From: a virus
Taxonomy: Duplodnaviria; Caudoviricetes
Strand: one strand, 5' to 3'
Virus record (IMG/VR): IMGVR_UViG_3300007734_000743
Location: 1 to 62,388 of that record
DNA length: 62,388 nucleotides
Part shown: positions 2 to 13,728 of the stretch, in pieces
How positions within the stretch are numbered: the first letter of the stretch is position 1
How the letters are laid out: each line of letters begins with the position of its first letter
The notes under the pieces: generated by a model
Databases searched by the model: none
What the model was told of the DNA's origin: nothing
The model's input: the letters and a program-made list of their open reading frames with translations, nothing else
Translations under genes and position numbers: made by a program

Positions 2-178
2 ATTGATATTATCTTTGAAAAAAGAGATTATTTTGAAGATTTTCTAAAGTGTGTAAATGGACAGATACCTTCGTGGTTTGAAGACGACTGTAATATGTTT
101 GACATTAGACCTTTTGTTGAGGACATATTTTATTCTGATATGATTGTTAGGCTCAAGGCTGAAGGATTGTATCTTTAA
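2..178 (+). CDS. 3' end of a hypothetical protein (truncated by window edge)
   Basis: Open frame from position 2 (IDIIFEKRDYFEDF...LKAEGLYL) ending TAA at 176-178, just before the first cassette repeat. Confidence 0.6.
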   Translation: MDIIFEKRDYFEDFLKCVNGQIPSWFEDDCNMFDIRPFVEDIFYSDMIVRLKAEGLYL

Positions 179-239
179 TTCCCCTCTTGGGGTCGTGAGA
201 CTGTTTTTCCATATTTCACAATTTCAGCGTATAATAGAT

Positions 240-944
240 ATGGAAATCATTTACACAGCTACTGTTGGTTCTAAAATGCATGGTTTGTCAACACCACAAT
301 CTGATGAAGACACTAGATACATTTACAAGCTGTCGCTCAGGGAAGTGATTTCACCATTTGCCACAGATAGAACTAAAACCACATCTTCCAATGGCGAAGA
401 TACCGAATCTTGGGAGCTAAGAAACTTTGTTAAGCATTTAACCTCAGGCAATCCTACAATGTATGAAGTTATTAAATCTCCATTGTATATTAAGGATAGT
501 AACTCTGAATTGCTCAGAATAGTTCCTAACTATGCTTTTGATGGAAGAAAGATTTTATTTGCTCACATTGGTTATGCTGAGGCACAACTAAAAAGATACT
601 TGAGAAACTTTCAGCAACCAGCTGAGACTAACACTTTAAGACGAATACCTAAATCAATTGTTGCCGCTTATAGAGTATTAGCACAGGCTGACCAGCTTCT
701 TAATACAGGAACATTTGAGCCTGTAATTAAAGACTACTCACAATCTTTACATGATAAGCTGATGACAATCAAGCTGATGTCCGCTGATGATATTACTTTA
801 GATTTTATCAAAGAACATGAGCTAGGTATTGAAAAAGGTATTCAAGATTTGAAGATTATGTTTGAGGATTTACCAAGCTCAATAAAGGATAAAAAGCCAG
901 ATATTGACGCCTTAGAGGTCTTGCTCATGTCGTTTTACAAGTGA
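240..944 (+). CDS. Pol-beta-superfamily nucleotidyltransferase (YcgL/RlaP-like)
   Basis: GSKMHGLSTPQSDED = GS...SDxD NTase motif, plus GNPT.YE; start moved to ATG 240 directly after the promoter repeat. Confidence 0.75.
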   Translation: MEIIYTATVGSKMHGLSTPQSDEDTRYIYKLSLREVISPFATDRTKTTSSNGEDTESWELRNFVKHLTSGNPTMYEVIKSPLYIKDSNSELLRIVPNYAFDGRKILFAHIGYAEAQLKRYLRNFQQPAETNTLRRIPKSIVAAYRVLAQADQLLNTGTFEPVIKDYSQSLHDKLMTIKLMSADDITLDFIKEHELGIEKGIQDLKIMFEDLPSSIKDKKPDIDALEVLLMSFYK

Positions 945-1005: not shown

Positions 1006-1623
1006 ATGAGCGAAGCAGACATCATCAGCAAATACACAAAAATTGATTGGGAAAAAATTTCTGAAACTGAAGGACTTTCCGAGAGCTTCTTAAGAGAAAA
1101 CAAAGATAAAGTTCTTTGGTCAAAAGTTCTTAAGAGAAACAAATTTTCTGAAGATTTTATCTTGGAGTTTCAAGATAAGTTGGATTGGTCTTGGCTTGCC
1201 AGCTTTCAAAAATTTTCTGAAGATTTCATTAGAAAATATTCTTATGCCTTGGATTGGGAAGAAGTTTTGCAACACCAAGTGCTTTCTGAAAATTTCATCA
1301 GAGAACATCAAGTTGGCATGAATTGGTTTATAATTTCAAGTTCTCAAAAATTATCTGAGGATTTTATTAGAGAATTTCAACATAAAGTGTATTGGTGGCA
1401 TATTTCTTGTCACCAAAAATTATCTGAGGATTTTATTAGAGAATTTCAGGATAAGGTGCATTGGTCACAAATATCAGAAAAGCAAGAACTTTCTATGGAT
1501 TTTATTGAAGAGTTTGAGGATAAAGTAGATTGGAACATTCTTTGGAACCATGAAAATTCCCACAGGTTATCTTCAGAATTTAAGAAGAAATTCAAGAAGC
1601 ACGAGCCAATGTCTAAGTGGTAA
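1006..1623 (+). CDS. Tryptophan-repeat protein (~8 x 23-aa W..IS..QKLSEDFIREFQDKV. repeats)
   Basis: 23-aa periodicity of Trp; 35-bp exact DNA repeat at 1345-1379 and 1414-1448. Confidence 0.85.
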   Translation: MSEADIISKYTKIDWEKISETEGLSESFLRENKDKVLWSKVLKRNKFSEDFILEFQDKLDWSWLASFQKFSEDFIRKYSYALDWEEVLQHQVLSENFIREHQVGMNWFIISSSQKLSEDFIREFQHKVYWWHISCHQKLSEDFIREFQDKVHWSQISEKQELSMDFIEEFEDKVDWNILWNHENSHRLSSEFKKKFKKHEPMSKW

Positions 1624-1631
1624 TCTTAAGC

Positions 1632-1657
1632 GATAAGGGTAAAAATTTACCCTTATC
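1632..1657. repeat. Perfect inverted repeat GATAAGGGTAAA-AA-TTTACCCTTATC
   Basis: 12-bp arms between a stop codon and the third cassette promoter. Confidence 0.8.
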
Positions 1658-1715
1658 CCCTCCTCACAATCTCAGCCCGTTTTTCCAGGTTTCACAATCT
1701 CAGCGTATAATAGAT

Positions 1716-3103: not shown

Positions 3104-3176
3104 AACACTTGCTCAATCCCCTCACGGGGCTGTCAGATTGTTTTTCCAGGTCTCACGAAGATTGGGTATAATAGAT

Positions 3177-3401
3177 ATGACAGCACAAGACCATAATGAA
3201 AAAAATCTAGAAACCATCAAATATCAGGAATCGTACATCAATCATTTACAAGAAAAAATTGACAAACTAACATCTGTCATTGAATCTGGTAAGCCTGTGT
3301 GTCCTTATTGCAAGACAGAACTGCAGTTGGTGAGGGAAGAAAGGTATTACCTGCGAGGCAGAGGTGAAGAAGATGTATGGAAGTGCTATTGCACTGATTA
3401 A
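3177..3401 (+). CDS. Small coiled-coil plus Zn-ribbon protein
   Basis: ATG after repeat 7; CPYC...CYC. Confidence 0.75.
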   Translation: MTAQDHNEKNLETIKYQESYINHLQEKIDKLTSVIESGKPVCPYCKTELQLVREERYYLRGRGEEDVWKCYCTD

Positions 3402-3459
3402 CCCCATACACAATCTCACCACGTTTTTCCAGGTTTCACGAAGATTGGGTATAATAGAT

Positions 3460-3726
3460 ATGAGCAGACATTCAGCAACAACAAAAGATGGATTGGAAAT
3501 GATAATTGGTTACGACAGACCACTTAGTGAATACTTTATTCAGGTGTACGACGAAAACGATGAATTGATTTCCGACTGGTCATCGTCAGGTAATTCGATG
3601 ATTAAGAATCATCCTCCTATGGCTAACAGCAAGATGCTCTCAATGATTGAGCAAATCATGAGCGACGAAAGCCAGAAGCTACTGGCTCCGCAGATTAGGT
3701 TGCTCGCCTTGGATTTGCCTTTCTGA
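3460..3726 (+). CDS. Hypothetical early protein (GYDRPL..YF.QV)
   Basis: ATG after repeat 8. Confidence 0.75.
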   Translation: MSRHSATTKDGLEMIIGYDRPLSEYFIQVYDENDELISDWSSSGNSMIKNHPPMANSKMLSMIEQIMSDESQKLLAPQIRLLALDLPF

Positions 3727-3749
3727 GATTGTGTGGGAAGGGAAAAGGG

Positions 3750-3782
3750 GCACTTTTTTAAAAAGTGCTTTTAATTTTTTTT
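3750..3782 (+). terminator. Probable intrinsic terminator closing the cassette array
   Basis: GCACTTTTTT/AAAAAGTGC inverted repeat followed by a T-tract. Confidence 0.55.
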
Positions 3783-3789
3783 CCTATAT

Positions 3790-4740
3790 AGAGCATAGGG
3801 GGTACTTTGTGTGGTGAAAAGGGAACCCATAACCCCCCTGATTTTTCAAACCCGCTCACATTTATCGACAGAGGCATAGGGGGGTGGGGTAAAAATAACA
3901 CCCGGTACTATTTTCAGTCACGCATAGGTGTTTTTTTATTTGATAATAAGTCCTTAGCTGCCGTTGTGATTGCATCGTTATAAAAACTCTTATGCTCTAA
4001 ACGATGGCATATTGCACAAAGCATTATACATTTAGGTAATTCGTTTAAAATTATGCCAAATGAATAGTTTTTAATTTTGCTAAATTCAAATGTCTTTTCA
4101 ACGCCTTCGGAGTGGTGGAAATCTAAGCAAATATATTCTGACATGTCCTTAGGTTTCCACCCACACAATTCACATTTCCCGCCTTTATTCTCAACAGCAA
4201 AATGTCTATAGCCTAATGTTTTTATTTTAGTTACGCATTTTGAGCAAAAAATTCCATTTCTTGATTTTGAGAATATTTTATCACATCCAGGACACAATCT
4301 TTCTGTATAAACATAGATTCTTGAATTTTTAAATATTTGTTTTCTTTTGTTAACATCTTGATTGTATTTATTTAATATCTTTCTATATTTTGATTCACTC
4401 TCATACATATATTCTATCAATTCTTTATCATAATTATTTAGTTTTATAGGAACGCAATTGAAGCAATTAACTCTGCCTCTATAATCAAACCTTTTTCCTT
4501 TAAACTTAAATCGCTTACAGAATTCGAAGTTGCAAATTTTACATTTAGCCATAATACTATTATACAAAATTAAAATATTAACACCCTTTATTTTTAGTGA
4601 CACCCCCCTGGGGGGGTAAAAAAACGGGGGTGTGGTTTGCAGAAAGGGTATAGGCTAGAATTTTATTATGATATTTTTAAAAACAACCTAAAAAAATAAT
4701 TTTGGGTAGGCACAGGGGGAGGGTAAAAATAACACCCCCG
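3790..4740. repeat. G/C-run-rich non-coding blocks with an imperfect direct repeat GGCAYAGGGGG..GGGTAAAAATAACACCC (about 3873-3903 and 4709-4737) flanking the HNH gene
   Basis: Repeats seen directly; G/C homopolymer runs contrast with the AT-rich background. Confidence 0.7.
3914..4552 (-). CDS. HNH endonuclease (homing-type, Zn-finger)
   Basis: CELCG...CLDFHH...ELPKCIMLCAICHRLEH; N-terminal CxxC pairs; start set at ATG 4552 downstream of TGTATAAT. Confidence 0.85.
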   Translation of the reverse strand: MAKCKICNFEFCKRFKFKGKRFDYRGRVNCFNCVPIKLNNYDKELIEYMYESESKYRKILNKYNQDVNKRKQIFKNSRIYVYTERLCPGCDKIFSKSRNGIFCSKCVTKIKTLGYRHFAVENKGGKCELCGWKPKDMSEYICLDFHHSEGVEKTFEFSKIKNYSFGIILNELPKCIMLCAICHRLEHKSFYNDAITTAAKDLLSNKKTPMRD

Positions 4741-4786
4741 TCTTCTCAGATTGTGTATAAGGTGGATTTTTAATCGTATATATTTT

Positions 4787-5005
4787 ATGCTTTACAATTT
4801 GATTGTTTTTTTAACAGTTTTTGAAAACACTATGTTTTTTTTCGCTTTAACATACAAAAAATTTTTTGTGCTTGCGAAATCAGTTAAATATCAAATTTCT
4901 CTTGATAAAGCAGAGAATAAATATTTTGAGCAACTTGAAATAGAATCCTTAGCACTTGCTGTGCTTTATGTGCTATGTTTACTTTATGGAGCTCACATAA
5001 TTTAA
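4787..5005 (+). CDS. Small two-TM membrane protein
   Basis: Two hydrophobic segments; CGTATA-N6-ATG start. Confidence 0.5.
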   Translation: MLYNLIVFLTVFENTMFFFALTYKKFFVLAKSVKYQISLDKAENKYFEQLEIESLALAVLYVLCLLYGAHII

Positions 5006-5044
5006 AATTATAGAACATTGTCATGTTTTTATCGTATAATATAT

Positions 5045-5142
5045 TGCGGGATAGAGCAATGGTAGCTTGTCTGGCTCATTGAGTGCCTTAAGAGACATTG
5101 AATAACCAGGAGGTTGGGGGTTCGAGTCCCTCTCCCGCTCCA
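5045..5142 (+). tRNA. tRNA-Met(CAT), initiator-like, with a 24-nt insertion (about 5080-5103) in the anticodon loop
   Basis: TGCGGGA/TCCCGCT acceptor with 1:72 mismatch, D-arm GAGC/GCTT (A11-U24), anticodon stem TCTGG/CCAGG, T-arm GGGGG-TTCGAGT-CCCTC; removing 24 nt gives loop CTCATAA. Confidence 0.8.
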
Positions 5143-5145
5143 CAT

Positions 5146-5217
5146 GCTCCGATAGTCTAGTGGTTAGGACATCGCTCTTTCAAGGCAAAGACACGGGTTC
5201 AATTCCCGTTCGGAGTA
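5146..5217 (+). tRNA. tRNA-Glu(TTC), no encoded CCA
   Basis: GCTCCGA/TCGGAGT acceptor, loop CT-TTC-AA, T-arm ACGGG-TTCAATT-CCCGT. Confidence 0.92.
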
Positions 5218-5235
5218 AATAACACACAATCTGGA

Positions 5236-5988
5236 ATGAATATGTATCTACCTCTTCTTGCCTTTTCCCTTATCACACAATCTTCATTAGATGATGCACA
5301 ATGCAAAAAAGCTCTCAATGAAATTTTGCCCACTATGCGAACAACCAATGCCATGAGCTTTAGACTAGAGGGTGAAAATGAATACAAAGGTTTTTTCACA
5401 AAATACTCTGGTAGCTTTAAATGGTTCAAGAATGAATCTGTAATCAAATCCGAGCTGAAGCTTTCAAGAGATAATACAAATCTTCAAAGAATAGTGGCTG
5501 ATGGAAAGAAAGTATGGGCACACAATCTGCAAAGAAATGAATACACTGTGGCCCGATATTCTCTAGAGCTTTCTGTAGGAGAAGACTACATGAAAAGGTA
5601 TATCAGCGGTGTTAAGTATCCTGTGCTTGGCATGGGCCAGCATTTAATGACCTTGGCAGACCAAGTGGGATTTGTATCACCTTCACTGAAAGATTGGATT
5701 GGCGGCATCTCTTGGCAAGGAAAAATAGAAATAGATAAAAACAATTCTTTGAGAATTGTGAAGAGAATTTATCAAACTGTGGCTGATTATCGTTATGTGA
5801 TGTGGGAGCTTGAATCGTTTGATGAGGGTGTGACATTTAGTTTCTCAAGCATTAAGATTTATAACAAAAGCTTTGATGGCTCTACCACCACCACCTATCT
5901 TTATTTGGACGATTGTGTGGGTGTGGATTATTCAGGATTTAAATTTGTGCCTCCATCTGGCAGTAAAGTATTATGGATTAAAGATTGA
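5236..5988 (+). CDS. Secreted LolA-like (lipoprotein-carrier fold) protein
   Basis: N-terminal signal peptide; IVADGKKVWAHN...NEY and C-terminal FKFVPPSGSK motifs typical of the LolA/DUF2092 family. Confidence 0.6.
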   Translation: MNMYLPLLAFSLITQSSLDDAQCKKALNEILPTMRTTNAMSFRLEGENEYKGFFTKYSGSFKWFKNESVIKSELKLSRDNTNLQRIVADGKKVWAHNLQRNEYTVARYSLELSVGEDYMKRYISGVKYPVLGMGQHLMTLADQVGFVSPSLKDWIGGISWQGKIEIDKNNSLRIVKRIYQTVADYRYVMWELESFDEGVTFSFSSIKIYNKSFDGSTTTTYLYLDDCVGVDYSGFKFVPPSGSKVLWIKD

Positions 5989-6024: not shown

Positions 6025-6690
6025 ATGAACAAACACAATCTACTTAAACGAATAGCATCTGTTGCCACAGAACTAGATGTAAAAGGTTTCACTAAAGAAG
6101 CTAAATCTTTAGATTTGATTCTTCTAAAACTTGCTCAATCACCTGTTGCCGCACCTGGCTCAGATGATGATGGAAATGATGATATTGAATTTCTATCAGC
6201 TGATGAAAATGCATTCAGCCTCGAAAAATGGAGCAAAATTAAAGAAATATTGAAATCAATTTACGAATCTATCAGAAGTGTTTCATACATGCAAGAAAGA
6301 AGTTTTTTTGAAAAAGTGTATGCATACCTTTCTAATAAAGGATATTCAGGACAATATTTAGAGCGGTGCTTGGGGCATTTGCAGAAATTTAAAGAATTGC
6401 TCATTGACACTGAAATGATTTTATCAAAAATGAACACTGAATATGAAAAAGCTTTCATTGAAGATTTTAACAAATTGTTTCAAACTTGGAAAGTGGGCTA
6501 TAGAGAAGTGTATGAAGATGGAAAACCAGAATTTTTAATTACTAACAAGCCAGAACAAGATGAGAAAAAAATGCAAATATCAAGTAAGTTACAAGATATT
6601 ATTGATATAATTGGCTGGGACAATGTACGCTTATTGCCTTGGGAAGAAAACCCAGCTCTAAATGATAAACCTTTTTTCAATATTAATTGA
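6025..6690 (+). CDS. Hypothetical protein with shared N-terminal module (IAS.ATELD..GFTKEAK..DLILLKLA)
   Basis: First ~38 aa nearly identical to those of 12913..13728; remainder unrelated. Confidence 0.8.
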   Translation: MNKHNLLKRIASVATELDVKGFTKEAKSLDLILLKLAQSPVAAPGSDDDGNDDIEFLSADENAFSLEKWSKIKEILKSIYESIRSVSYMQERSFFEKVYAYLSNKGYSGQYLERCLGHLQKFKELLIDTEMILSKMNTEYEKAFIEDFNKLFQTWKVGYREVYEDGKPEFLITNKPEQDEKKMQISSKLQDIIDIIGWDNVRLLPWEENPALNDKPFFNIN

Positions 6691-8276: not shown

Positions 8277-8406
8277 TCTTTCTTTCTAATTCATCTCTCA
8301 AAGCTTCAGCCTTTCCAATGTAATAAAATGTATCTGGTTTTCTTCTGTAAGCTAAATAGGCAACCACCCCTGTAAAAATTACCGCTAGTGTTAATTTTTT
8401 GCTCAT
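8242..8406 (-). CDS. Small membrane-anchored protein
   Basis: MSKKLTLAVIFTGVVAYLAYRRK; ATG overlaps the stop of the cca gene. Confidence 0.6.
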   Translation of the reverse strand: MSKKLTLAVIFTGVVAYLAYRRKPDTFYYIGKAEALRDELERKIAEKIQENVHS

Positions 8407-10004
8407 GTTGTTTCCTTTTGACTCTCTAACCATTGTAAAGCTCCAGCTCTATCACTGAATAAGCCCATGTTTTGTGCTTTCCAGGCCTCATCAAGCATGA
8501 GCTTGATAGCTGGGCCTTGAATACCCAATACTTGTTGTACATCATTTCCATCAATAAATGATGCAATTCTTTGCATTCTTTTATGAAGCCATGCAAGAGC
8601 TGATTCTCTTGATTCCATAGCTGGATTGTGCTCAAGAATAAGCTTTCTATGCTCCTTTAGAATTTCCCCAATTATTGGACCACCTTTGTTGCCAAGATAA
8701 GGCATAATGTCTCTACCTTGAAGAAGGTCTGGATGTTTGTGCTCGTAAACATTGTATTGTTTAGCCAAATCTGACATCTGCCTAGCCTCTGCTGGAAGCT
8801 CCTTAGGTAATGGTGGCCTTCCAGAGTGGTCGGCTTCAATAAGTAGCTCAAGCATTCTGATGTTTGCAGGATGAATTTTTTCAGCTAAGCTCTTGACAAA
8901 AGCTTCTTGTTTTGGTGTGTTAGAATGATGAATGTGGCTAAGGTGAAATTCTACCAAAGGAACCACTTTATCTATAATGTTTTTGGGAGCACCAATGGAT
9001 TCAAGAAAAGCTCTTGCTTTTGGCCCACCTTGTTCTTCATGTCCATGAGATGTAATTCGGTCTATTCCTTTTTTATTTATTACAGCTGTGGTATCAGGTT
9101 TAGCAAAGTCGTGAGCTAAAGCTGAGTAAATCAATACTTCTCTATCTTCTGGGCTAAGATTTTCTCTTTCAGCTATATTTGCAGCTTCGTTCATTACATG
9201 AGCTGTATGCACATCCACGTCTCCCTCAGGATGATACTCTGGCTCCTGCGGTGTGCCTCTCAGATTGTGTATTTCAGGAAAGTTTTCAGACCATCCAGTG
9301 GTGTAGAGAAAATCAAGAGCTTTTCCAGGCTCTATGCCTTTTGTGACAAGTTTTTTAAACTCCTCGTAAATTCTTTCTTTTGGAAGATGCTTGTATTCTT
9401 CTCTTATAGATTGTGCCAGCTCTGCTGTTTCTGGAGCTATGTCAAAACCAAATCGGGAAGCGAATTGCATTCCTCTAAGCACCCTCAATGGGTCTTCAGA
9501 AAAAGCCTCAGATGTGTGTCTCAGTATTTTATTTTGCAAATCTTGTCTACCATTGTATGGGTCAATTATTTCGCCAGTGATAGGGTTATATGAGATTGCG
9601 TTTATGGTAAAATCTCTTCTAGCTGCGGCTTCCTCAGGTGATAAATCACTTCTCACTTGCACATTAAAGTCTTTGTGGCCCACACCAGATTTTGAATCTA
9701 AGCGAGGTAATGAAAAATCAAAATCTGAGCCATCTTCGCCTACAAACTTAATCACACCAAATGATTGACCCACAAGGTCTGCCTTTCCATACTTAGACAG
9801 AATCTGATTTAGGTCTTCGTAGTTGACATTATATACTTCAAAATCTATGTCTTTAGGTGAAGCTCCAAGTATAGCATCTCTCACTGCTCCTCCAACAATT
9901 AAAGCTCTTCCACCTTTATTATTTATATCAGTTAAAATTGAATAAACATAACCTGGAAGTTTAATTGGGAGCTTTTGTATCTCCTGACTATACTTATACC
10001 ACAC
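8403..10004 (-). CDS. cca: tRNA nucleotidyltransferase (class II CCA-adding family) with HD domain
   Basis: VGGAVRD...KDIDFEV, RRDFTINA, EDPLRVLR, HPEGDVDVHT...HDFAKP. Confidence 0.92.
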   Translation of the reverse strand: MWYKYSQEIQKLPIKLPGYVYSILTDINNKGGRALIVGGAVRDAILGASPKDIDFEVYNVNYEDLNQILSKYGKADLVGQSFGVIKFVGEDGSDFDFSLPRLDSKSGVGHKDFNVQVRSDLSPEEAAARRDFTINAISYNPITGEIIDPYNGRQDLQNKILRHTSEAFSEDPLRVLRGMQFASRFGFDIAPETAELAQSIREEYKHLPKERIYEEFKKLVTKGIEPGKALDFLYTTGWSENFPEIHNLRGTPQEPEYHPEGDVDVHTAHVMNEAANIAERENLSPEDREVLIYSALAHDFAKPDTTAVINKKGIDRITSHGHEEQGGPKARAFLESIGAPKNIIDKVVPLVEFHLSHIHHSNTPKQEAFVKSLAEKIHPANIRMLELLIEADHSGRPPLPKELPAEARQMSDLAKQYNVYEHKHPDLLQGRDIMPYLGNKGGPIIGEILKEHRKLILEHNPAMESRESALAWLHKRMQRIASFIDGNDVQQVLGIQGPAIKLMLDEAWKAQNMGLFSDRAGALQWLESQKETT

Positions 10005-12912: not shown

Positions 12913-13728
12913 TCAATTTTCTTCTTCTTGGTCTTCAATTAGCGGGTCAAAATACTGTTGATATCTAGGCTCTTTTATTTGTCTTGGGCCTGTTCTCATA
13001 TCAAATCCTGGATTATAATTTTTAAACCAAGGTGAAAGTTGTCTTTCGTCATAAAAACTTTTATCAGATAAATACTTTTCTGAGTCAGCAAATGGGTCTA
13101 TTTGTGTTGGTTTATTTTCAATTAGGTCTCTTCCAAGCTCAATCATTTTATTAGCGTAATATATTACATATTCCGCCACAGGTATTGTTTGTTCAAATTC
13201 TACTTTACGGTCACTACTTAAAAAGACGGGATTTCTTAGTGTCTCTTTTAAATCTTTAATTACTTCTATGCAAAATTTAATCAAATAATTACAAGCTTCC
13301 TCAAAGTATTGCAATTTATTACCTAACTCGCCATACTGTCCTTGCGGCAAAAAAACTGTACTTGCGACATAATCTAGTAAATCCCGAAACCTAGATTGTA
13401 TGGCATTTAAAATTGGCATGGTAAAATTCCCATCTGGGTCATTATAATCAAAAATTCTTTTTCCTTTTTTTAAATTTTCTTGAAAATGAATTGGGTCATT
13501 TCCAAATTTATATCTTTCGGTTTCAAGCAATTCCACTTTATTGATTAGGAGTTTAAAAATGGTGTCAAACAAAGATTTGTAATGTTTTTTGAATTCTTTT
13601 TCATTTGAATTTTCATTAGCTAATTTCAAAAGAATTAAATCCATTTGTTTAGCTTCTTTAGTGAAACCAGTATAATCAAGCTCTGTAGCAATTGAAGCGA
13701 TTTTAATAAGTAGATTTTTCATTTTCAA
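12913..13728 (-). CDS. Hypothetical protein with shared N-terminal module
   Basis: IASIATELDYTGFTKEAKQMDLILLKLA, as in 6025..6690. Confidence 0.8.
   Translation of the reverse strand: MKMKNLLIKIASIATELDYTGFTKEAKQMDLILLKLANENSNEKEFKKHYKSLFDTIFKLLINKVELLETERYKFGNDPIHFQENLKKGKRIFDYNDPDGNFTMPILNAIQSRFRDLLDYVASTVFLPQGQYGELGNKLQYFEEACNYLIKFCIEVIKDLKETLRNPVFLSSDRKVEFEQTIPVAEYVIYYANKMIELGRDLIENKPTQIDPFADSEKYLSDKSFYDERQLSPWFKNYNPGFDMRTGPRQIKEPRYQQYFDPLIEDQEEEN

What the first reader, a model, noticed from the sequence alone, without database searches (positions are those of the whole stretch)
5045..5142. Phage initiator-like tRNA-Met interrupted by a 24-nt intron-like insert
Seen: CTCAT-[TGAGTGCCTTAAGAGACATTGAAT]-AACCAGG. 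The insert is far too short for a group I intron. It can fold as an imperfect bulge-helix-bulge (CTCA/TGAA helix, TTG and TAA bulges). Canonical 37/38 cleavage would leave an unusual U37, whereas excision between 34/35 and 36/37 restores CTCATAA. Known: short protein-spliced tRNA introns are archaeal/eukaryal, bacteria lack the EndA splicing endonuclease, and intron-like tRNA inserts have been noted in some very large phages. Inference: either a phage-specific splicing route, or an unspliced tRNA-fMet decoy or nuclease-resistant precursor (VapC toxins cut tRNA-fMet in the anticodon stem-loop).
Basis: partly seen in the sequence, partly recalled or inferred. Interest (0 to 1): 0.7.

Follow-up and report, generated by a model that had tools for sequence, protein, structure and literature searches.

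The report
Optional 24-base insert in phage tRNA-Met
A huge freshwater phage carries an initiator-type methionine tRNA gene split by a 24-base insert that some near-identical strains lack; the split gene is not decaying, so the insert behaves like a tiny optional intron whose removal route is unknown.

Summary
Window 5045-5140 is a tRNA (Rfam 45.7 bits) with 24 extra bases in the anticodon loop. Removing them in any of three equivalent registers gives CTCATAA.

- Same-lineage contigs L029 and one contig of run X19 carry that uninterrupted loop with otherwise near-identical DNA.
- Four more metagenome contigs and three run assemblies carry the identical insert.
- It is therefore a single-origin DNA presence/absence polymorphism, not an artefact.

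It is not a bulge-helix-bulge intron. The central helix has 3 of 4 pairs, the canonical cut would leave U37, and a second lineage has 1 of 4 pairs. It is not a group I intron either. No EndA, RtcB or Rnl family was found, but only about 17% of this phage is in hand.

Two new results argue against junk. The interrupted gene has 1 variable site in 96, against about 9% at neutral sites (p about 0.009). An unrelated huge phage (L166/L167) has a 23-base insert at the same site with the same end letters.

Best reading (0.35): an intron-like element removed from the RNA by an unidentified cut-and-rejoin route. Rivals: disabled allele, homing-endonuclease site disruption, unspliced function.

The parts
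5045..5079 (+). 5' part of the tRNA-Met gene: acceptor strand, D arm, 5' strand of the anticodon stem, and C32 U33 C34 A35 U36
   Evidence: Rfam RF00005 alignment; ARAGORN cloverleaf; identical in L029, which lacks the insert
5080..5103 (+). 24-nt insert, written in the 36/37 register. Registers 5078-5101 and 5079-5102 are equivalent.
   Evidence: Absent from L001, L002 and L004, from L029 and from one X19 contig. Identical in L005, L008, L010 and L016 and present in contigs of X1, X2 and X9.
5104..5140 (+). 3' part of the tRNA-Met gene: A37 A38, 3' strand of the anticodon stem, variable loop, T arm and acceptor strand
   Evidence: The only variable site among insert-bearing copies is 5131 (U64/C64), which pairs with G50 either way.
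5145..5218 (+). tRNA-Glu(TTC), 4 nt downstream and probably co-transcribed
   Evidence: ARAGORN; Rfam 64.8 bits; the same Met-Glu pair occurs in L001
5018..5045 (+). Promoter-like region. TATAAT at 5035-5040 is conserved with L001. The consensus scan calls TTGTCA-16-TATATT.
   Evidence: 3 sites found against 2.5 expected, so weak; conservation in alignments A1 and A2
3914..4603 (-). Free-standing HNH endonuclease gene (HNH1), about 440-490 nt upstream of the tRNA on the other strand. It lies within a segment (about 3727-4998) that the relative G001 lacks at this place.
   Evidence: PHROG phrog_2255, E 6.1e-20; no counterpart in L001/L003; full length in L005, L008 and L016 and in no other locus; dN/dS 0.22-0.51
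144..944 (+). RlaP-family nucleotidyltransferase (RNA-repair associated)
   Evidence: Pfam PF10127, E 2.2e-19. G001 has one next to tRNA genes.
8403..10004 (-). tRNA nucleotidyltransferase (CCA-adding type, with an HD domain)
   Evidence: Pfam PolyA_pol, PolyA_pol_RNAbd and HD; PHROG phrog_2244, E 5.2e-81

Best explanation
The 24 bases are an optional, intron-like insertion element in the anticodon loop of the phage's initiator-type tRNA-Met gene.

Shown:
- It entered the DNA once in this phage lineage.
- It coexists in the population with the uninterrupted allele.
- It is invariant wherever found.
- The gene around it is still held constant.
- An unrelated huge phage has a 23-nt counterpart at the same site.

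Inferred:
- The gene is transcribed together with tRNA-Glu from the conserved promoter.
- The insert folds into a small hairpin on top of the anticodon stem.
- It is cut out at two points 24 nt apart, and the loop is resealed to CUCAUAA, giving a working initiator-type tRNA.
- The enzymes are not those of archaeal or eukaryal splicing and not a group I ribozyme. I expect a host or phage endoribonuclease plus a repair-type RNA ligase. Neither has been identified.
For: - The insert is real and a DNA polymorphism. The identical insert is in the window, L005, L008, L010 and L016 and in contigs of runs X1, X2 and X9. Same-lineage L029 and a 357-nt X19 contig lack exactly 24 nt.
- A single gain is likely. 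L029 keeps the outgroup base A at 5124, while all 5 insert-bearing copies have G.
- The interrupted gene is not decaying. It has 1 variable site in 96 among 5 insert-bearing copies. Fourfold-degenerate sites of the next gene have 9 of 95 variable (Fisher one-sided p 0.009; exons alone 1/72, p 0.027).
- Fourfold sites elsewhere vary at a similar rate: 6/73, 34/402 and 12/164.
- The one change keeps the G50 pair.
- Diversity is normal on both sides: HNH1 pS 2.6-5.3%, ORF 5236 pS 5-7.6%.
- There is independent recurrence. L166/L167 have no blastn similarity to the window. They carry an initiator-like tRNA-Met (Rfam 54.3 bits) with a 23-nt insert between CTCAT and AACC. It begins with T and ends with AAT as here, which gives the same three-register ambiguity.
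- Removing the insert gives a better tRNA: 59.0 bits for L029 against 45.7-47.3 bits interrupted.
- There is a precedent. Lak megaphage tRNAs have inserts that are identical across cohorts and present or absent between close genomes (PMC6784885 and bioRxiv 10.1101/356790; passages read).
- tRNA-repair type genes lie nearby.
Against: - No RNA evidence of any kind exists.
- No splicing enzyme was found. Pfam on 57 of 57 ORFs of 150 aa or more gave no RNA ligase or splicing endonuclease.
- Six-frame searches for RtcB, RNA_ligase, tRNA_int_endo and RNA_lig_T4_1 found nothing in the window or in G001. G001 has no interrupted tRNA, the window is about 17% of a genome, and the RNA_lig_T4_1 control was silent.
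- Neither insert has a fold better than shuffled sequence (z -0.44 and -0.77).
- The two minimum-energy folds differ in detail.
- Protein-dependent tRNA splicing has never been shown in bacteria or phages, to my knowledge.
- The conservation signal rests on one short region and about 5-8% neutral divergence. A local selective sweep of the insert allele would look the same.
- The insert alone (0/24, p 0.12) is not significantly conserved.
- The relative G001 has two further CAT tRNAs, so some redundancy is possible.
Confidence: 0.35

Rival explanations
1. Disabled allele. A one-off 24-bp insertion inactivated a dispensable phage tRNA gene. It persists by drift or hitch-hiking, because the host supplies initiator tRNA.
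For: - No splicing signals or enzymes were found.
- The uninterrupted allele still circulates.
- Inserts are rare. 4 of 26 metagenome loci with this arm carry one, all of one lineage. 2 of 115 viral loci with the L166 arm carry one, representing one genotype.
- Bacterial initiator genes with short inserts found were tandem duplications or chance matches in coding genes.
Against: - Only 1 variable site in 96 against about 9% at neutral sites.
- The insert allele is the commoner one: 8 assemblies against 2.
- An unrelated phage has an insert of nearly the same length and with the same end letters at the same site.
- Neither insert is a duplication of neighbouring sequence, and no donor was found in 290 kb.
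Confidence: 0.25
2. Homing-endonuclease site disruption. The uninterrupted anticodon arm is identical in many phage lineages. It is proposed to be the cleavage target of the free-standing HNH endonuclease next door. The insert splits the site and so protects genomes that carry the endonuclease gene. The arrangement resembles 'collaborative homing' of a free-standing endonuclease with an intron. tRNA function may be lost.
For: - HNH1 lies about 440-490 nt upstream, in a segment absent from G001 at this place.
- 4 of 4 insert-bearing loci with upstream cover carry HNH1, and no other locus does.
- L005 has a second, unrelated HNH ORF ending about 38 nt before the tRNA, so this spot attracts such genes.
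- HNH1 is under some purifying selection (dN/dS 0.22-0.51).
- Strains are mosaic around the locus.
Against: - All HNH1 carriers belong to one lineage, so this amounts to one event.
- The two uninterrupted same-lineage contigs share the window-specific upstream flank (from 4682 and from 4811). They are too short to show whether HNH1 is present.
- Site disruption does not explain why all 72 exon bases stay constant.
- HNH1 and the spacer have normal diversity, so there was no joint sweep.
- In L166/L167 no HNH gene was found among 20 neighbouring ORFs. Only a T5orf172-type domain lies about 2 kb away.
Confidence: 0.2
3. Unspliced function. The 96-nt tRNA-like RNA is the product. For example, it could act as a decoy or competitor for an enzyme or toxin that recognises initiator tRNA.
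For: - Constraint on exons and no change in the insert.
- The acceptor, D and T arms are intact.
- Release from a Met-Glu transcript needs only normal end processing.
Against: - There is no evidence for any target.
- The uninterrupted allele persists in the same population.
- The two lineages share little insert sequence beyond the end letters.
- Inserts also occur in other tRNA types in phages, which suggests a general intron-like class rather than a specific decoy.
Confidence: 0.12
4. Archaeal or eukaryal type intron, cut at a bulge-helix-bulge motif by an EndA-like endonuclease and joined by RtcB.
For: - The length is typical. Archaeal initiator tRNA introns of 12-25 nt appeared.
- The CUCA/UGAA register with 3-nt bulges exists.
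Against: - The central helix has 3 of 4 pairs and the inner helix 1 pair.
- The cut would give CUCAUUA, not the ancestral CUCAUAA.
- L166/L167 have 1 of 4 pairs in this register.
- No PF01974 or PF01139 match, although the controls rang.
- The replication and transcription genes are bacterial in type.
Confidence: 0.02

Closest known systems
'Enigmatic introns' in tRNA genes of Lak megaphages (Devoto et al., Nat Microbiol 2019, PMC6784885; preprint 10.1101/356790). I read passages only. Supplementary Table 6, which holds the sequences, was not available.
   Same: - Huge phage.
- A tRNA recognisable only if an insert is allowed.
- The insert is present or absent between close genomes.
- The insert is identical across cohorts.
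- Excision points were defined by aligning alleles with and without the insert.
- No mechanism and no RNA evidence.
   Different: - A different phage group: about 350 kb, freshwater, standard genetic code, against about 540 kb, gut, code 15.
- An initiator-type tRNA-Met rather than Thr, Phe, Gly or Tyr.
- 24 nt, whereas at least one Lak insert is long enough to look like a tRNA.
- Here there is also a test against neutral sites and a second unrelated lineage hit at the same site.
Archaeal bulge-helix-bulge introns of initiator tRNA, as seen in DPANN and Asgard contigs
   Same: Similar length (12-25 nt there) and location in the anticodon loop of a CAT tRNA.
   Different: The archaeal ones sit at 37/38, with a full CUCA/UGAG helix and two 3-nt bulges. 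Here the insertion lies at 34/35-36/37 and the helix is imperfect. The host is bacterial in type and no EndA was found.
Group I introns in bacterial and phage tRNA anticodon loops. Review PMC3984707 was seen as a search listing and abstract only; the rest is recalled.
   Same: Optional intervening sequence in the anticodon loop. Presence or absence varies among relatives. Often linked to homing endonucleases.
   Different: Group I introns need a catalytic core of some 200 nt. This insert has 24 nt. It has no Rfam match and no terminal G in any of the three registers.
Free-standing homing endonucleases that target an intron insertion site: F-CphI with psbA, and mobE with I-TevIII. PMC6083498 and PMC2790892 were seen as listings and abstracts.
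   Same: An endonuclease gene beside a conserved gene whose interrupted form would be immune.
   Different: There the interrupting element is a self-splicing intron and cleavage has been shown. Here nothing is known of HNH1's target, and the insert cannot self-splice.
Phage repair of anticodon-loop breaks, and the RlaP and CCA-adding enzymes of jumbo phages (Iyer et al. 2021, PMC7824862; passages read)
   Same: Cut-and-reseal chemistry in a tRNA anticodon loop. RlaP and a CCA-adding enzyme lie within 5 kb of this tRNA.
   Different: Repair restores a broken loop and removes nothing. No RNA ligase was found in the 62 kb. G001, which has no insert, also has RlaP.

Membership tests
Bulge-helix-bulge (EndA-spliced) tRNA intron | Two 3-nt bulges on opposite strands, separated by a 4-bp helix and flanked by helices | tested here: not met
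   In the only possible register, C32.A is a mismatch and U33-A, C34-G and A35-U pair, giving 3 of 4. The inner helix is 1 pair followed by a mismatch (read). The minimum-energy fold is a different hairpin (z -0.44). L166/L167 have 1 of 4 pairs in this register.
Bulge-helix-bulge (EndA-spliced) tRNA intron | Cuts in the bulges remove exactly the inserted DNA | tested here: not met
   The bulge cuts would give CUCAUUA. The uninterrupted alleles have CUCAUAA.
Bulge-helix-bulge (EndA-spliced) tRNA intron | A splicing endonuclease (PF01974) and a ligase such as RtcB (PF01139) are available | tested here: inconclusive
   0 of 2 records (window, G001) match, and the controls rang in 4 and 10 of 14 genomes. 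However, only about 17% of this phage is in hand, G001 has no interrupted tRNA, and the host is unknown.
Group I intron | A catalytic core, a U before the 5' splice site and a G as the last intron base | tested here: not met
   The insert is 24 nt. No RF00028 match at E up to 10. The last base is A, A or T in the three registers.
Bacterial-type initiator tRNA | CAU anticodon in a 7-nt loop | tested here: met
   Met only once the insert is removed. L029 has CTCATAA and scores 59.0 bits.
Bacterial-type initiator tRNA | A11:U24 in the D stem (feature recalled) | tested here: met
   D stem GAGC/GCTT in the cloverleaf. The other two CAT tRNAs of G001 lack it.
Bacterial-type initiator tRNA | Unpaired 1:72 (feature recalled; canonically C.A) | tested here: met
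   U1.U72 in the window lineage. The orthologue in L001 has U1-A72 paired.
Bacterial-type initiator tRNA | Three consecutive G:C pairs at 29-31/39-41 (feature recalled) | tested here: not met
   2 of 3: U29-A41, G30-C40, G31-C39.
Huge-phage tRNA inserts ('enigmatic introns', Devoto et al. 2019) | A non-group-I insert in a tRNA gene of a very large phage, present or absent between close genomes and invariant where present | tested here: met
   Whether the Lak inserts share sequence or position with this one could not be checked, because the supplement is closed.
Free-standing homing endonuclease with a protected (interrupted) target | An endonuclease gene adjacent to the interrupted gene and confined to genomes that carry the insert | tested here: inconclusive
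   4 of 4 insert-bearing loci with upstream cover have HNH1, and 0 of the other loci do. This is one lineage, and the two uninterrupted same-lineage contigs do not reach the gene.
Free-standing homing endonuclease with a protected (interrupted) target | The endonuclease cuts the uninterrupted allele at or near the insertion point | not testable with these tools
   Needs purified HNH1 and DNA of both alleles.

The most novel reading that the evidence does not exclude
Huge phages of bacteria carry a class of 23-24-nt (and longer) mobile mini-introns in tRNA anticodon loops. A protein-dependent cut-and-rejoin pathway unrelated to EndA splicing removes them. This would be a new kind of tRNA splicing in the bacterial world, possibly built from an anticodon-loop nuclease and a repair-type RNA ligase. 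This locus, with both alleles in hand, would be the smallest and best-defined substrate for finding that pathway.
Probability: 0.3. Interest if true: 0.9.

Novelty: new member of a known kind. Interest (0 to 1): 0.62.

Why it matters
Non-group-I inserts in phage tRNA genes were noted in 2019 and never explained. My searches found only the Lak megaphage paper and its preprint, with no follow-up on mechanism.

This locus makes the question testable.
- The insert is only 24 nt.
- Both alleles exist in nature with the same exons.
- The phage is widespread: contigs of 20 runs from 13 studies hold the region.
- The interrupted gene looks selected.
- A second, unrelated phage was hit at the same site.

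If the insert is spliced, bacteria or their phages have a tRNA splicing route that nobody has described. If it is instead a shield against a homing endonuclease, or a decoy, that would be a new use of a tRNA gene in phage conflicts. Either way, annotation pipelines run in bacterial mode miss such genes, as one search shows.

Tried and rejected
- **RNA evidence.** No RNA holder is listed. Runs X19 and X20 are labelled RNA-Seq, but the tool rates them probably DNA. X19 has contigs up to 109 kb. Its uninterrupted contig starts 234 nt upstream of the tRNA, and its depth (5.55) is like that of the downstream gene contig (4.2). I therefore read it as a DNA allele, not a spliced RNA.
- **X19 coverage.** X19 gave no cover over 4500-4593 and 4688-4781, so nothing can be said about HNH1 in that strain.
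- **L029.** It starts inside an 11-nt tandem repeat array, after a 17-nt end sequence that is repeated inverted at its other end. I recall that sequence as a random-amplification primer. HNH1 presence is therefore unknown in L029 too.
- **GenBank phages.** Only tRNA-Glu matched, in 3 records.
- **Exact searches in viral contigs.** The interrupted arm and a 16-nt core of the insert each gave 0 matches. The window's own record may be left out of these scans.
- **Donor for the insert.** None in 290 kb held. The best matches were one 13-mer and 12-mers, at chance level.
- **HNH1 relatives.** No close relative in viral contigs. GenBank phages hold only distant ones: 205 records, all under 60% identity and none covering 80% of the protein.
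- **RNA_lig_T4_1 (PF09511).** No match, but its control rang nowhere, so this answer is void.
- **Whole-record searches.** The records behind L008, L166 and L167 are not held.
- **Promoter scan.** 3 sites found against 2.5 expected.
- **Ideas considered and dropped:**
  - The direct repeat CATTGA inside the loop has period 19. Removing one period leaves a 12-nt loop, so it cannot mark the excision.
  - A transposon footprint with a 2-bp duplication has no terminal inverted repeats and the element is single copy.
  - The resemblance of the insert's start to the reverse complement of the stem is patchy and at chance level.
  - An RNase III-like staggered cut is geometrically possible in the 36/37 register, because AU pairs with AU. 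But the helix is short, and the L166 minimum-energy fold does not keep it.

Full report
**What the window is**

The window is a whole IMG/VR virus record of 62,388 bases. It is linear and CheckV rates it 17% complete, which implies a phage of about 350 kb. The standard bacterial code fits: ORFs of 100 aa or more cover 95% of it.

I ran Pfam on 58 ORFs, including all 57 of 150 aa or more. They show a bacterial-type replication and transcription set:
- DnaB, primase, Pol III alpha, beta clamp and clamp loader
- RecA and RecJ
- ribonucleotide reductase
- two sigma factors
- a weak terminase match

The host is therefore bacterial in type.

**The observation**

The quoted sequence is present.
- Default ARAGORN sees only tRNA-Glu(TTC) at 5145-5218.
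- With introns allowed it finds a tRNA at 5045-5141 with a 24-nt insert in the anticodon loop.
- Rfam's tRNA model scores 45.7 bits over 5045-5140, with the extra bases in the loop.
- The insert occurs once in the window at up to 3 mismatches.

The insert ends in AT, like the anticodon CAT. Removing 24 nt after position 34, 35 or 36 therefore gives the same loop, CTCATAA. ARAGORN's own register (32/33, anticodon AAT) and the canonical 37/38 register (CTCATTA) do not give it.

The tRNA body is initiator-like. It has A11:U24, an unpaired U1.U72, and 2 of the 3 G:C pairs expected next to the loop. These defining features are recalled.

**Relatives without the insert**

The gene downstream (5236-5988) led to L001, part of the 347-kb record G001, which is 99% complete. 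The protein is 93% identical there. At the same place L001 has an uninterrupted tRNA-Met(CAT) followed by tRNA-Glu, with the loop CTCATAA and the same TATAAT box upstream.

Two other viral contigs with the same anticodon arm are also uninterrupted. None of G001's 24 tRNA matches is interrupted. G001 has two further CAT tRNAs, neither initiator-like.

**The insert is a DNA polymorphism within one phage population**

A metagenome scan for the arm, allowing 0-30 extra bases, gave 26 loci.
- 22 are uninterrupted.
- 4 (L005, L008, L010, L016) carry the identical 24 nt and are 95-98% identical to the window.
- No locus has an insert of any other length.
- One of the 22, L029, belongs to the same lineage. 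It aligns to window 4682-5793 at 94.8%, counting the gap. Its tRNA differs from the window's by one T-loop base only, and it lacks the insert.

Contigs of public runs tell the same story.
- X1, X2 and X9, from three studies, carry the insert with no change in the tRNA.
- X19 has a 357-nt contig over 4811-5186 with exactly 24 nt left out at 5078. It has one other substitution and one extra A that X9 and L001 share.

X19 is labelled RNA-Seq, but I read this contig as DNA, for three reasons:
- The tool rates the run probably DNA, and its longest contig is 109 kb.
- The contig begins 234 nt upstream of the tRNA.
- Its depth equals that of the flanking gene.

At 5124, L029 keeps the base of the outgroup (A), while all five insert-bearing copies have G. 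A single gain with no reversion is therefore the simplest history. Some of these assemblies may come from the same samples, so eight with the insert against two without is an upper count.

**Not a known kind of intron**

*Group I.* The insert is 24 nt, has no Rfam match and has no terminal G in any register.

*Bulge-helix-bulge.*
- The only register pairs CUCA with UGAA, which is 3 of 4 pairs. By my arithmetic, with 6 of 16 base combinations pairing, a random insert reaches this about 15% of the time.
- The inner helix is a single pair.
- The cuts would give U37 rather than the ancestral A37.
- The computed fold is a different hairpin, no better than shuffles (-9.0 kcal/mol, z -0.44).
- The whole pre-tRNA does not even prefer the cloverleaf (z -0.64).

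- The tRNAs there with non-duplicative inserts were archaeal. They have a full CUCA/UGAG helix and 3-nt bulges.
- The bacterial matches were chance hits inside coding genes, partial tRNA copies or tandem duplications.

**Enzymes**

RtcB, the RNA_ligase family, the T4 Rnl1 family and the tRNA splicing endonuclease family found nothing in the window or in G001. This is weak evidence, for three reasons:
- G001 has no interrupted tRNA.
- The window is a sixth of a genome.
- The Rnl1 control was silent.

An RlaP nucleotidyltransferase (144-944) and a CCA-adding enzyme (8403-10004) lie within 5 kb. Jumbo-phage RlaP is reported to travel with RNA ligases (PMC7824862; passages read). G001 has RlaP too.

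**The neighbourhood: homing endonucleases**

An HNH endonuclease gene, HNH1 (3914-4603, minus strand; PHROG E 6e-20), lies 440-490 nt upstream. It sits in a segment (about 3727-4998) with no counterpart at this place in G001.
- It is full length in L005, L008 and L016 and in no other locus.
- L005 has a second, unrelated HNH ORF that ends about 38 nt before the tRNA.

This suggests that the tRNA region is a target for such enzymes and that the insert could shield it. The link could not be tested, because the two uninterrupted same-lineage contigs stop short of the gene.

**The interrupted gene is not decaying**

Variable sites among the five insert-bearing copies:

| Region | Variable sites |
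|---|---|
| tRNA-Met with its insert | 1 of 96 (U64/C64; both pair with G50) |
| tRNA-Glu | 5 of 74 |
| Fourfold-degenerate sites, downstream gene | 9 of 95 |
| Upstream spacer 4691-5011 (4 copies) | about 20 of 321 |
| Fourfold sites, other genes | 6/73, 34/402, 12/164 |

Fisher's one-sided test against the 9 of 95 fourfold sites gives:
- p 0.009 for the 96 nt;
- p 0.027 for the 72 exon bases;
- p 0.12 for the insert alone.

Diversity is normal on both sides. HNH1 has pS 2.6-5.3%. The downstream gene has pS 5-7.6% and dN/dS 0.03-0.07. The dip is therefore local. It means either purifying selection on the interrupted gene or a recent sweep centred on it. Both say the insert allele is not neutral junk. 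The evidence is modest, because it rests on one short region and shallow divergence.

**A second, independent case**

A generalised arm pattern with 2-30 extra bases found two viral contigs, L166 and L167 (198 and 225 kb). They are 100% identical over the 1,955 nt they share and have no blastn similarity to the window.
- They carry an initiator-like tRNA-Met (54.3 bits) with a 23-nt insert between CTCAT and AACC.
- Like the window's insert, it starts with T and ends with AAT, so it has the same three equivalent registers.
- It forms a small hairpin but has only 1 of 4 pairs in the bulge-helix-bulge register.
- Of 115 viral loci with that arm, only these two are interrupted, and none is a close relative.
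- Among 20 neighbouring ORFs there is no HNH gene. A PP-loop ATPase lies about 500 nt upstream and a T5orf172-type domain about 2 kb away.

The search fixed the position, so only the similar length and the shared end letters count as coincidences. I estimate these jointly at roughly 1 in 1,000.

**Wider context**

ARAGORN with introns allowed found 691 tRNAs in 156 held loci (1.34 Mb) and flagged 22 of them. Ten of the 22 are the two lineages above.

Rfam supports at least three others as whole tRNAs with long inserts:
- L268:10358-10506, 149 nt, 54.5 bits
- L221:1962-2095, 134 nt, 41.5 bits
- L201:6495-6616, 122 nt, 32.3 bits

A 635-kb GenBank phage has a 124-nt tRNA scoring 40.9 bits. I did not study these further.

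Devoto et al. described the same pattern in Lak megaphages: inserts that are identical across cohorts and present or absent between genomes. They called them enigmatic. My literature searches found no paper that explains them.

**Verdict**

The feature is a single-origin, optional 24-bp element in a conserved initiator-type tRNA gene.

| Reading | Weight |
|---|---|
| Intron-like element removed from the RNA by an unidentified route | 0.35 |
| Disabled allele | 0.25 |
| Homing-endonuclease site disruption | 0.20 |
| Unspliced function | 0.12 |
| EndA-type intron | 0.02 |

The remainder covers artefact or something not considered. What is shown is the DNA history, the conservation and the recurrence. 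Everything about the RNA is inference.

Noticed in passing
L005 (reverse-complement orientation) 1484-2140, between the equivalents of window 5011 and 5033: A second HNH-motif ORF of about 219 aa, unrelated in sequence to HNH1. It is inserted about 38 nt upstream of the interrupted tRNA in this strain only.
   Followed up: partly
window about 4613-4690; L029 20-117; L005 (oriented) 1072-1127; loose end of an X1 contig at 4678: An 11-nt tandem repeat array (unit CAATCTCACAA) is present in some strains and absent from the window. It lies beside a G/C-rich hairpin-like element (4613-4678) that also occurs on separate short contigs.
   Followed up: no
window 6025-6138 and 13612-13719 (inverted); extra copies in L005, L008, L010 and L016: An element of about 110 nt is repeated in the window in inverted orientation. 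It is present in varying copy number between strains.
   Followed up: no
window 1617-1700, 2747-2790, 3138-3180 and 3364-3460: Several small ORFs are preceded by the same stretch, which translates as ..FFQVS..IIDM. This suggests a repeated upstream regulatory element, not coding sequence.
   Followed up: no
window 5172/5186-5188 (tRNA-Glu positions 28 and 42-43): The window and L016 have a C28.A42 mismatch in the tRNA-Glu anticodon stem. L005, L008, L010 and L029 have G42 G43, which restores the pair.
   Followed up: partly
window 5137-5142: CCA follows position 72 directly, with no separate discriminator base. L001 has one more C. A CCA-adding enzyme is encoded 3 kb away.
   Followed up: no
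L038, L039 and L041 (viral contigs): A phage initiator-like tRNA with an 8-nt anticodon loop, CTCATTAA, identical in three contigs.
   Followed up: no
L268:10358-10506; L221:1962-2095; L201:6495-6616 (same as L225:443-565); L164:20100-20223: Other phage tRNAs with long inserts (roughly 37 to 75 nt) that still pass Rfam's tRNA threshold. ARAGORN reads L268 as a tRNA-Asn(GTT) with 75 extra bases inside the anticodon.
   Followed up: partly
L221:2941-3164: A group I intron match (RF00028, 70.1 bits) inside a phage tRNA array.
   Followed up: no
L231:9963-10329: A phage-borne tmRNA (RF00023, 130.5 bits), next to an ARAGORN 'tRNA-Asn with intron' call that is probably an artefact of it.
   Followed up: no
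L166:7015-7605 (minus strand): A PP-loop ATPase (PF01171, the family that includes lysidine synthetase) lies about 500 nt from the interrupted CAT tRNA of the second lineage.
   Followed up: no
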